A DNA stretch of 64,000 bases from positions 10,602,001-10,666,000 of the forward strand of contig JAWMAR010000040.1 in assembly GCA_036785375.1 (NCBI GenBank), given 5' to 3'. Below, in pieces: positions 12,001 to 15,000 of this stretch. This DNA comes from Leucoraja ocellata (lineage: Eukaryota). The position numbers were made by a program. Within the stretch, counting starts at the first letter, position 1, and each line of letters opens with the position of its first letter.

Positions 12001-15000
12001 AGGTGTTCTTCTTGTTTCTCCTAACTTGATAAAATGTATAATAGTTTTGCAAATTAACGTTAAATGCATCATTCCGATTGGATTGCTGCAAAGGCATTGC
12101 AAATAGTATAAATAATGTTGCAAAATGAGTGCCCTGTTAATTGTTGATTGGTTGAAATGTTGAGCCTTGGGGGAACTGTTTGAATCCCAGGGCACATGTT
12201 GCACTATTCATCTGTGTTGGCTTCCTTCTTGAAGCTTCTTTCAAATACAATGCATTCCAGATTGTATTATTGGGTTATGGAACTGTCAATTATGTACTGT
12301 TATTATCAATATGTTTGATTGGTTTTTAAAGAGACCGCCCCCATGTGGTTCGGCCCCTCAAAGTTCGGGGACCTATACAAGGTAGCTCCCACGAGGTCCG
12401 ATGTCAATCTTCTGGAAGGACGCTTGGGACTGCGCGACCTTTTGGAGCGTCTGTGCTTGCACGAGTCTGGAAGGGCTCGGCCAAGCAGATACAAGGATCG
12501 AACCAGTGGTGGTTAGGTATTGTATAGGGAACTGTAGTTGTGTTATCCAAAATAAAGTTTAGTTGCTCAAGTGCTTGATTCAGTATTTTATTGACTGAAA
12601 CTAGACTGGGGGGAGCATAGAACAAGCTATTTACAATTCCTTCTTGCGAATCAGGAATACAAACTGTTCCCAGATGCACACAATGTGGCCTCCTCGACAC
12701 TGGAGATGTTGAATGCAGGCTGGGTCACTTCTTCACAGGAAACGTCCATGTGGTGTGCCAAGCTGATGCTCAGTTTCAAATTCTTAGGGAGGTAGTTAGT
12801 AGAGTTTCCTCCGTTTCACAATGATGTGCATGGGAATACGTCAATATGGCCGCACATATATGGCAATATATTAATATGGTTCCCTAAGTGCAGCACTGGA
12901 GGCCATGCTGCTGCCTAGATCATGCTGATGGAGCCCAGTACACTGTGTTGGTAGGAGGGGTCTCCAGGGGCGGTGCTGTAGGCGGTGGCTCTCAGTTGGT
13001 ATTATTTGGGCAATTATTCTTCAGAGCACAGCACAATCAAGCATTGAAATGTGATGCATGTTATCTAAAATTGAGTTTTTAGTTTAGTTTAGTTTAGAGA
13101 TACAGCACGGAAACAGGCCCTTCGGCCACTGAGTCCGCGCCGACCAGCGATCCCCGGACACTAGCACTATTCTACACATACTAAAGATAATTTACAATTT
13201 TACCAAAGCCAATTAACTTCCAAACCCTTACGTCTTTGTAGTGTGGGAGGTAACTGGAGTGGGAAGATTTTTTTTTTTGTAACATGCAGAACATAAGATA
13301 TATAAGGTAGACACAAAATACTGGAGTAACTCAGCAGGTCAGGCAGCATCTCTGGAGAGAAGGAATTACGTTTCGGGTTGAGACCCTTCTTCAGATATAG
13401 GAGTAAGTGAGATTTTCGCTTCCTGAAGGTTTGCAAAGAGAGTACCTTTGGGAATTTATTCGCGATCTTTCCACTATCCGAAGAAAAACAGCGGCATTTT
13501 TCGAATGGGAAGACATAGGAGAAGGAATATTCAAAGTTGTGAAGTCCGATTCTCTGGCTGAGCTCTGGGGACAAAGGAAAAAGAATGAGCACATGACCTA
13601 TGAGAAACTAAGCAGAGCATTGAGGTACTTTAGCAATCTATGTATCAGGCTGAACTTCCAAACAGAAATGTGATTTGGTAAATTGGAATTATTTTTATTT
13701 CACAATTAGGCACTTTTAATTATGTACAATCTAGTTATAATAGGGAAGGATTTTGCAAGGCACTATTCAGTTTACATTACAAGAAACATATCCCAGAAAA
13801 AACGAAATGTTCTCCCTGTGTCCTCATGAGTTTTCTCCAGGTGCTGCAGTTTCCTAACACATTCCAAAGATGTACAGGATTGTAGGTTAATTGGCTTCGG
13901 TAAAATTCTAAAATGTCTCCAGTGTGTAGGATAGCACTAGTGTACGGGGGTCGCTGGTCGGTGCAGTATCGGTGGGCCGAAGGGCCTGTGCCACCCTTAC
14001 CATTAAATCGCTACACTACTGTGGCTGCAGTATGAGATGTCTACAACTTGCACTGCAGTTACTAGTCTGGATCACCCCAATCTGGGTCTCTTCCATCAAT
14101 GGACAAGGGCACTAGAGGGTTCAACAGCTGGTTTCCTTCCAAGATACAAACAAACCTGACATAGAAATACATTGTCGTTCCTTCATCACTGCTGGGAGAA
14201 ATATCTGAAATATCTAGGGTAGTATTGAAAACCAGAGGACATAGGTTTAAGATGATGGGAGGAAGATGTAATAGGAACCCGAGGAGTACCATTTTCACAC
14301 AAAGAAAGGTGGGTGTATGGAACGAGCTGCTGGAGGAGGTCAATGAGGCAGGTACTATTGGGACGTTTAAGAAACATTTAGACAGGTTAATGGATAGGAG
14401 AAGTTTAAGAGGACATGAGCCAAATGCAGGCAGGTGTCTAGTGTAGATGGAACATGTTGGCCAGTGTGGGTTACTTGGGCTAAAGGGCCTGTTTCCACAC
14501 TGTAAGACTCAATGACTCTATGAGTTAGTGATGGGCAGAGGCTAAAGGTTTGTTCTATTGGGAAGGTGCAAGTTCCAGAGCATAAATAAAAGTAAGTGCA
14601 AGAAAGGTTATGGAAATCCGGTTTATATGTGTTAAGAGATAGCATGCTGCAAATCCTTTGCAATTATAGAATCACTCATGGACCAATCCTAAATACTGGT
14701 AGTTTATTATTGCCAATAATACCTGATTGTCACGTTTTACAGAGGGAAATAATTGTTGACAGATCACTTCATTTTATTTAGCTTTTCAGGCATTATTACA
14801 AAACTGGAAATTTGGAACGGGTGCATAGAAGGTTAATGTACAAGTTTGGAAGGAATGCATATGTCTGGAGATAAATATCCTCGTTTACTCATCAATTACA
14901 ACCTGATTAAAAATATGGCCCTAATGGAAAATAAGAGACTACGCTAGAATGCACTCGTGCACTCTTCAGGAACTAGGCTATCAGTAATCATCATAACTAG

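What the first reader, a model, noticed from the sequence alone, without database searches (positions are those of the whole stretch)
13429..14874. ELF5-like ETS gene about 6 kb upstream of the RAG1 promoter, apparently lacking PNT exons
Seen: two exons with canonical splice sites encode a complete ETS domain ending at TAA 14874. I could not find a Pointed/SAM exon or start exon in the ~9.4 kb back to NDUFS3. There are unusual substitutions (GNLERVH for GILERVD, AYVW for AHGW), and a repeat sits 35 nt from the acceptor. Known: ELF5 and EHF are PNT+ETS epithelial factors that lie as a tandem pair megabases from RAG in human. Inference: a relocated ETS-only paralogue (possible competitor at GGAA sites, possibly within reach of RAG enhancers) or a decaying pseudogene.
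Basis: partly seen in the sequence, partly recalled or inferred. Interest (0 to 1): 0.65.

Follow-up and report, generated by a model that had tools for sequence, protein, structure and literature searches.

The report
Lone ELF5-type ETS exons near RAG1
Two exons that encode only the DNA-binding end of an ELF5-like gene stand alone between NDUFS3 and RAG1, and they look like a leftover or heavily altered gene copy, which is a modest curiosity and not a discovery.

Summary
Exon A (13429-13624) and exon B (14790-14874, stop TAA 14872-14874) have AG/GT borders and share a split Arg codon. Searched separately, both match the ELF5 chain 1wwx_A best, at adjoining residues 9-70 and 71-97. Exon A alone passes Pfam's Ets cut-off.

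No Pointed domain turned up in 145 stop-free + strand segments between the NDUFS3 stop (3942) and exon A, nor in 144 further segments on the other strand and downstream. Exon A has no in-frame ATG ahead of the domain. No CpG island lies upstream.

The domain is unusually worn. It differs at 14 of 56 positions that are identical in the ELF5, ELF3 and EHF chains. One stretch (13470-13505) reads 0 of 10 like ELF5 in frame, but it resembles ELF5 when the frame is allowed to hop.

My best reading, at about 0.45, is a 5'-truncated, intron-bearing remnant of an ELF5-type gene. A live, fast-evolving PNT-less ETS gene (about 0.3) is not excluded, because the frame, the splice sites and the recognition helix are intact.

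No eukaryotic sequence collection was open, so a second ELF5, a phylogeny, dN/dS and expression all stayed unchecked. The joined-exon step was left out.

The parts
13429..13624 (+). ETS exon A. It encodes helix 1 through the recognition helix. The codon frame starts at 13431, and the first two bases complete a codon begun in an unseen upstream exon.
   Evidence: Pfam Ets E=4e-17. ELF5 chain 1wwx_A residues 9-70, E=5.5e-22. Splice dinucleotides read.
13470..13505 (+). Frame-scrambled stretch inside exon A. It is probably two to four small indels whose lengths sum to zero.
   Evidence: In frame, 0 of 10 residues match the ELF5 chain. A frame-hopping alignment scores 5, a score reached by 28 of 18187 other window stretches and 1 of 3000 shuffles. 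At higher gap cost the score is 4, reached by 243 of 18187 stretches and 31 of 3000 shuffles. The other two frames gave no ETS hit in PDB searches.
13625..14789 (+). Intron (1165 nt) with GT...AG borders. It carries dispersed-repeat copies.
   Evidence: In-window repeat matches at 13844-13989 and 14403-14519.
14790..14874 (+). ETS exon B. It encodes the end of the recognition helix, strands 3-4 (the wing) and the stop TAA at 14872-14874.
   Evidence: ELF5 chain residues 71-97, E=1.4e-08. ELF3 scores 8.8e-04 and EHF 1.3e-03, each with a one-residue gap.
3943..13428 (+). Upstream interval, where any start and Pointed exons would have to lie. None was detected.
   Evidence: 0 of 145 stop-free segments of at least 22 aa match SAM_PNT; the best hit of any family is E=0.0054. 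There is no CpG island.
13304..13396 (.). Dispersed repeat copy that ends 32 nt before exon A.
   Evidence: 11 further matches in the window.
13126..13259 (.). Left arm of an inverted repeat pair that brackets exon A. The right arm is at 13844-13975.
   Evidence: Pieces of 53 and 84 nt, 77-81% complementary.
3775..3942 (+). Neighbour: the last coding exon of the NDUFS3-type gene, on the same strand.
   Evidence: Earlier exons match Pfam Complex1_30kDa.
25193..28291 (+). Neighbour: the RAG1 coding exon.
   Evidence: Pfam RAG1, 1228 bits.

Best explanation
This is the 3' remnant of an ELF5-type (ESE subfamily) ETS gene. Only the last two exons and the intron between them survive, sitting between NDUFS3 and RAG1. 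It is not a processed copy, because the intron is still there. The part that would supply the promoter, the start codon and the Pointed domain is missing from the 9.5 kb upstream, so the open ETS frame has nothing to start translation. What remains has drifted: conserved residues have been replaced, and one stretch has been scrambled by small indels that happen to restore the frame. Shown: the two exons, their ELF5 affinity, the divergence counts, and the absence of a detectable Pointed exon. Inferred: that the 5' part is truly lost and that the remnant makes no protein.
For: No SAM_PNT appears among 145 stop-free + strand segments in 3943-13428, nor among 144 further segments (- strand 3985-16682, + strand 14948-24997). 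The same method does find exon-sized pieces of other domains: 38 and 43 aa of Complex1_30kDa at 2.5e-17 and 5.1e-05, and 60 aa of Ets at 4e-17. The in-frame open stretch before exon A starts at 13407 and holds no ATG. The first in-frame ATG is codon 55 of 65. No 400-nt bin between 4001 and 13200 has both GC above 0.5 and CpG o/e above 0.6. Counted by hand on the alignments, the window differs at 14 of the 56 positions that are identical in the ELF5, ELF3 and EHF chains. These include the Tyr that follows the second Arg of the recognition helix (now His) and a strand-3 Ile (now Asn). Identity to the ELF5 chain is 57 of 89. The stretch 13470-13505 looks frame-scrambled. The stop falls at the point that aligns with residue 296 of the 300-residue EHF chain. 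The acceptor of exon A is AAG|G, with a purine at -3. There is no other ETS copy in the window.
Against: All 92 codons are open, and all three splice dinucleotides are intact and in phase. The last 11 residues of exon A (the recognition helix with both Arg) and a 7-residue block before it are identical to ELF5. Differences are uneven: 10 of the 11 residues between helix 1 and strand 1 differ from ELF5. The indels all sit in one 36-nt stretch and sum to zero, and this is what compensation under selection would give. By my rough estimate, pure neutral drift would leave such an intact frame and splice sites only a few percent of the time. That estimate is an inference from recalled rates, not a tool result. 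Exons shorter than about 30 aa can escape Pfam, as ETS exon B did, so a short start exon cannot be excluded.
Confidence: 0.45

Rival explanations
1. It is a live, fast-evolving, PNT-less ETS gene derived from ELF5. One or more short, unrecognisable 5' exons in 4.1-13.4 kb supply the ATG. The product is a small ETS-only protein that binds GGAA-type sites and lacks the Pointed module.
For: The frame is open, the splice sites are canonical and in phase, and the recognition helix is fully conserved. The indels are confined to one loop-side stretch and sum to zero. In the passages I read, human ELF5 isoforms 3 and 4 lack the Pointed domain but keep the ETS domain, and isoform 3 had effects similar to the full-length forms in cell lines (PMC4704400).
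Against: No start exon, promoter-like CpG island or Pointed exon was found. 14 of 56 subfamily-invariant positions are changed, including a recognition-helix Tyr and a core Ile. Direct splicing from the NDUFS3 penultimate donor would be out of frame and would stop after 29 codons.
Confidence: 0.3
2. It is the species' ordinary ELF5 orthologue, and my scan missed its Pointed and start exons because they are short or diverged.
For: The Pfam scan works on stop-free segments only, and it missed the 27-aa ETS exon B. The ELF5-type signature is clear in both exons.
Against: The whole 5' part would have to fit into 9486 nt after a same-strand neighbour. 0 of 145 segments gave SAM_PNT even at E up to 10. 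The ETS domain is far more diverged than the three paralogous chains are from each other at their shared positions (14 of 56). From recall, ELF5 sits beside EHF in tetrapods; here there is no second ETS gene in 64 kb.
Confidence: 0.1
3. Part of the oddity is an assembly error: the scrambled stretch contains homopolymer runs that long-read assemblies often miscount.
For: The stretch 13470-13505 contains a run of five A and a run of five T.
Against: Changing run lengths would break the downstream frame, not mend it, since the present sequence is in frame. The substitutions elsewhere in both exons are not of this kind.
Confidence: 0.05

Closest known systems
ELF5 (ESE-2), with ELF3 and EHF: the epithelium-specific ETS subfamily
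   Same: It is the best match in both exons, at adjoining residues of chain 1wwx_A. The ETS domain sits at the very C-terminus. The window shares 10 residue states that ELF5 alone has among the three chains, and it lacks the one-residue insertion of ELF3 and EHF (hand count).
   Different: No Pointed domain or start exon was found. Identity to the ELF5 chain is only 57 of 89, and 14 of 56 subfamily-invariant positions are changed. One stretch is frame-scrambled. The neighbours are NDUFS3 and RAG1, not EHF.
Human ELF5 isoforms 3 and 4 (PNT-less splice forms) and ETS1 p27
   Same: These are proteins that keep the ETS domain and lack the Pointed domain. p27 is described as competing with full-length ETS1 for DNA sites (PMC4704400, passages read).
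   Different: Those forms arise by exon skipping from a complete gene with its own promoter and ATG. Here the exons themselves are absent, and no start has been identified.
Unprocessed (duplicated or unitary) pseudogene / gene fragment
   Same: It is homologous to a known gene, keeps an intron, lacks the 5' part, carries excess changes at conserved positions, and shows indel traces.
   Different: There is no stop codon or net frameshift in the retained 92 codons, and expression is unknown.

Membership tests
ETS-domain family (Pfam PF00178) | Match to the Ets profile above the curated cut-off | tested here: met
   Exon A alone scores 62.8 bits against a cut-off of 26.9, E=4e-17. 62 PDB sequences matched, all 60 shown are ETS proteins.
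ETS-domain family (Pfam PF00178) | Complete domain including the wing (profile positions 61-81) | tested here: inconclusive
   Exon B gave no Pfam Ets hit, but it aligns over all 27 residues to ELF5 chain residues 71-97. The joined domain was not scored.
ETS-domain family (Pfam PF00178) | The two recognition-helix Arg residues and the Tyr that follows (recalled as DNA-contact residues) | tested here: inconclusive
   Both Arg residues are present. The following Tyr is His. From recall, some ETS families carry a non-Tyr residue there and still bind DNA.
ELF5 orthology group (ESE subfamily) | Closest to ELF5 rather than to ELF3 or EHF | tested here: met
   Exon A: 5.5e-22 against 3e-18 and 1.5e-17. 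Exon B: 1.4e-08 against 8.8e-04 and 1.3e-03. The comparison is among solved structures only and is not a phylogeny.
ELF5 orthology group (ESE subfamily) | N-terminal Pointed (SAM_PNT) domain | tested here: not met
   0 of 145 and 0 of 144 stop-free segments. Exons under about 30 aa, or broken ones, would be missed.
ELF5 orthology group (ESE subfamily) | Tandem neighbour EHF (recalled for tetrapods) | tested here: not met
   No second ETS-like sequence in the 64-kb window (tblastn). The neighbours are the NDUFS3-type gene and RAG1.
ELF5 orthology group (ESE subfamily) | Placement inside the ELF5 clade in a tree that includes other cartilaginous-fish sequences | not testable with these tools
Unprocessed pseudogene | Retains the intron of the parent gene | tested here: met
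   A 1165-nt GT...AG intron sits where the ELF5 match passes from residue 70 to residue 71.
Unprocessed pseudogene | Disabling lesions | tested here: inconclusive
   No stop and no net frameshift in 92 codons. The missing 5' part is inferred. Indel traces sum to zero.
Unprocessed pseudogene | No expression and neutral substitution pattern | not testable with these tools
   No transcript data or related genomes were available.

The most novel reading that the evidence does not exclude
An ELF5-derived, Pointed-less ETS-only factor has been kept in the RAG locus of a cartilaginous fish. It is transcribed from a cryptic or repeat-derived first exon under the influence of RAG1 regulatory DNA, and it acts in lymphoid tissue as a small competitor at GGAA sites. 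Its loop was rebuilt by a compensated frameshift, and its recognition-helix residue is altered.
Probability: 0.1. Interest if true: 0.6.

Novelty: new member of a known kind. Interest (0 to 1): 0.3.

Why it matters
If it is a remnant, it is an ordinary piece of genome history. It would be useful mainly as a marker that ELF5-type genes and the RAG genes were once close neighbours in an early jawed vertebrate. It is also a warning for annotators not to call a full ELF5 here. If it is expressed, it would be a natural ETS-only protein beside RAG1, and worth a look for students of ETS site competition and of RAG locus regulation.

Tried and rejected
- **Whole-frame Pfam scan:** translations of 4000-13428 and 1-4200 were not accepted because of stop codons. 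I used stop-free segments by reference instead.
- **Other two frames of exon A against solved structures:** no ETS hit. One search gave 4 designed repeat proteins, which are chance hits. One search gave 0 hits.
- **Fetching the ELF5 and EHF chains as stored proteins for a local search:** the ids were not accepted, so I dropped this. No full-length PNT+ETS comparator was run against the window.
- **Structure of exon A alone:** low confidence (mean pLDDT 62, pTM 0.33), although the order helix-strand-strand-helix-helix is as expected for an ETS domain. The fold search on it gave 0 matches at E<=0.001; the best was a FLI1 ETS chain at E=0.5. This is uninformative.
- **In-frame NDUFS3-to-ETS splicing:** rejected. 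The donor at 3049|3050 is phase 0 and the acceptor at 13429 is phase 1, so that reading stops after 29 codons.
- **Rfam at gathering scores on the whole window:** 0 matches.
- **CpG-island scan upstream:** none found.
- **Literature:** nothing on an ELF5-like gene beside RAG1 or on ELF5 in cartilaginous fishes (listings only).
- **Not used:** the ESM Atlas search and the bacterial, phage and plasmid collections do not bear on a vertebrate gene.

Full report
**The exons.** On the + strand, exon A runs from 13429 to 13624. AG at 13427-13428 precedes it and GT at 13625-13626 follows it. Exon B runs from 14790 to 14874. AG at 14788-14789 precedes it, and it ends with TAA at 14872-14874 (translations). 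An Arg codon is split two bases plus one across the 1165-nt intron. Exon A starts in phase 1, so an upstream exon would have to supply one base of its first codon. I searched the two exons separately throughout.

**Identity.**
- Exon A (65 codons) matches Pfam Ets at E=4e-17, 62.8 bits against a cut-off of 26.9, over profile positions 2-60 of 81.
- Against solved structures exon A matched 62 distinct sequences, and all 60 shown are ETS proteins. The best is the ELF5 chain 1wwx_A (E=5.5e-22, chain residues 9-70), followed by ELF3 (3e-18) and EHF (1.5e-17). ETV6 and the others come in at 1e-11 or weaker.
- Exon B (27 codons) gave no Pfam Ets hit. Its only Pfam hit was a chance-level DUF4817 match at 0.0077.
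- Against solved structures exon B matched 4 sequences: ELF5 residues 71-97 (1.4e-08), ELF3 (8.8e-04), EHF (1.3e-03) and Spi-B (0.67).
- The two ELF5 matches abut at residues 70|71. This supports the splice model without joining anything.
- The ELF3 and EHF alignments need a one-residue gap in exon B. The ELF5 alignment does not.
- No other ETS-like sequence exists in the 64-kb window (tblastn).

**Divergence (counted by hand on the printed alignments).**
- Identity to the ELF5 chain is 38 of 62 in exon A and 19 of 27 in exon B, or 57 of 89 overall.
- The window shares 10 residue states that ELF5 alone has among the three chains. It shares 3 states that ELF3 and EHF have and ELF5 lacks.
- 56 aligned positions are identical in the ELF5, ELF3 and EHF chains, and the window differs at 14 of them (8 of 34 in exon A, 6 of 22 in exon B).
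- The changed positions include the Tyr right after the second Arg of the recognition helix (His here), an Ile in strand 3 (Asn here), and a Leu at the end of helix 1 (Ser here).
- Against this, the last 11 residues of exon A (the recognition helix with both Arg) and a 7-residue block before them are identical to ELF5.
- The stop comes at the point that aligns with residue 296 of the 300-residue EHF chain.

**A scrambled stretch.** Ten of the eleven residues between helix 1 and strand 1 differ from ELF5. In frame, 0 of 10 residues over 13470-13505 match the ELF5 chain. When the alignment may hop between frames, the same bases score 5 at gap cost 1. That score was reached by 28 of 18187 other stretches of the window (both strands, exon A left out) and by 1 of 3000 shuffles. 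At gap cost 1.5 or 2 the score is 4, reached by 243 of 18187 stretches and 31 of 3000 shuffles. I read this as two to four small indels whose lengths sum to zero. The support is moderate. Database searches with the other two frames found no ETS protein, as expected for matches this short.

**Upstream.**
- The NDUFS3-type gene is on the same strand. Its exon pieces match Pfam Complex1_30kDa. Its last exon runs from 3775 to the stop at 3940-3942, and AATAAA follows at 4050.
- That leaves 9486 nt before exon A, with no N in it.
- I sent all 145 stop-free + strand segments of at least 22 aa in 3943-13428 to Pfam at E up to 10. None matched SAM_PNT. 17 families matched one segment each, the best at E=0.0054, and RVT_1 matched at 0.14.
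- A second set of 144 segments of at least 38 aa covered the - strand from 3985 to 16682 and the + strand from 14948 to 24997. This was 144 of 205 listed; I left out the - strand beyond 16.7 kb. It gave only RVT_1 as a significant hit (1.2e-15) and again no SAM_PNT.
- As controls for exon-sized pieces, the method found 38 and 43 aa of Complex1_30kDa and 60 aa of Ets, but it missed the 27-aa exon B. Short or broken exons could therefore escape.
- The in-frame open stretch ahead of exon A begins at 13407 and has no ATG. The first in-frame ATG is codon 55 of 65.
- No 400-nt bin between 4001 and 13200 combines GC above 0.5 with CpG o/e above 0.6. The only such bin lies at 17601-18000, within a CpG-rich zone that reaches about 20400.
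- Splicing from the NDUFS3 penultimate donor (phase 0) would read exon A out of frame and stop after 29 codons.

**Surroundings.**
- RAG1 (25193-28291, +) and RAG2 (42117-43727, -) are confirmed.
- The TAA lies 10318 nt before the RAG1 ATG. I could not locate the RAG1 promoter.
- Exon A is hemmed in by dispersed repeats. One ends at 13396, 32 nt before the exon, and has 11 more matches in the window.
- Inverted copies of another repeat family bracket the exon at 13126-13259 and 13844-13975.
- I did not take the window for human, and I did not try to name the species.

**Weighing the readings.** The missing start, missing Pointed domain, missing promoter signature, changes at one quarter of subfamily-invariant positions and the indel traces point to a 5'-truncated, intron-bearing remnant. 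On the other side, 92 open codons, three intact splice dinucleotides, a perfectly kept recognition helix, and indels confined to one stretch and summing to zero are more than I would expect from free drift. My rough estimate assumes about 0.1 substitutions per site and recalled rates for stop creation and indels. It gives a few percent for such an outcome by luck. This is an inference, not a tool result. I therefore put the remnant at about 0.45, a live PNT-less fast-evolving gene at about 0.3, an ordinary ELF5 with missed exons at about 0.1, and assembly error as a contributor at about 0.05.

**Comparison with the known.** It works like, or once worked like, an ESE-subfamily ETS domain. Membership of the Ets family is met. 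ELF5 affinity is met among solved structures only. The Pointed domain, a defining part of ELF5, was tested and not found, so I do not file it as an ELF5 gene. PNT-less ELF5 isoforms exist in humans through exon skipping, and ETS1 p27 is a PNT-less competitor (PMC4704400; abstract and passages read). I found nothing in print on an ELF5-like gene beside RAG1 or on ELF5 in cartilaginous fishes (searches; listings only, none relevant).

**Unchecked.** The following stayed open: a second ELF5, EHF or ELF3 locus in the same genome; a phylogeny; dN/dS; and expression. The open collections hold only bacterial, archaeal, phage, plasmid and E. coli sequence. Supplementary files were not consulted, and none bears on a claim made here.

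**Verdict.** This is a real ELF5-type ETS exon pair, most likely a gene remnant. It is of low to moderate interest.

Noticed in passing
window 13126-13259 and 13844-13975: Inverted copies of one dispersed repeat family (77-81% complementary) bracket ETS exon A. In a transcript they could pair across the exon.
   Followed up: partly
window 16929-17442: A C-rich low-complexity tandem array with units of about 14-16 nt and a 111-nt higher-order period (score 466). It explains the GC peak, the strong negative GC skew and the overlapping ORFs on both strands there.
   Followed up: partly
window 17601-20400: A CpG-rich zone (o/e up to 1.06) between the ETS stop and RAG1. It is a candidate promoter region for RAG1, but no transcript evidence was available.
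   Followed up: no
window 23397-24482: A long open stretch with a reverse-transcriptase match (RVT_1, E=3.2e-15 and 1.2e-15) just upstream of the RAG1 coding exon, on the same strand. It is a retroelement fragment and was not analysed further.
   Followed up: no
window 4300-6400: Open stretches whose translations look like retroelement polymerase pieces by eye. Pfam support is weak (RVT_1 E=0.14 for one segment).
   Followed up: no
window 53901-54038: The only run of N in the window (138 bases). It was left untouched.
   Followed up: no
window 55494-56090: A 198-aa ORF with no Pfam match.
   Followed up: partly
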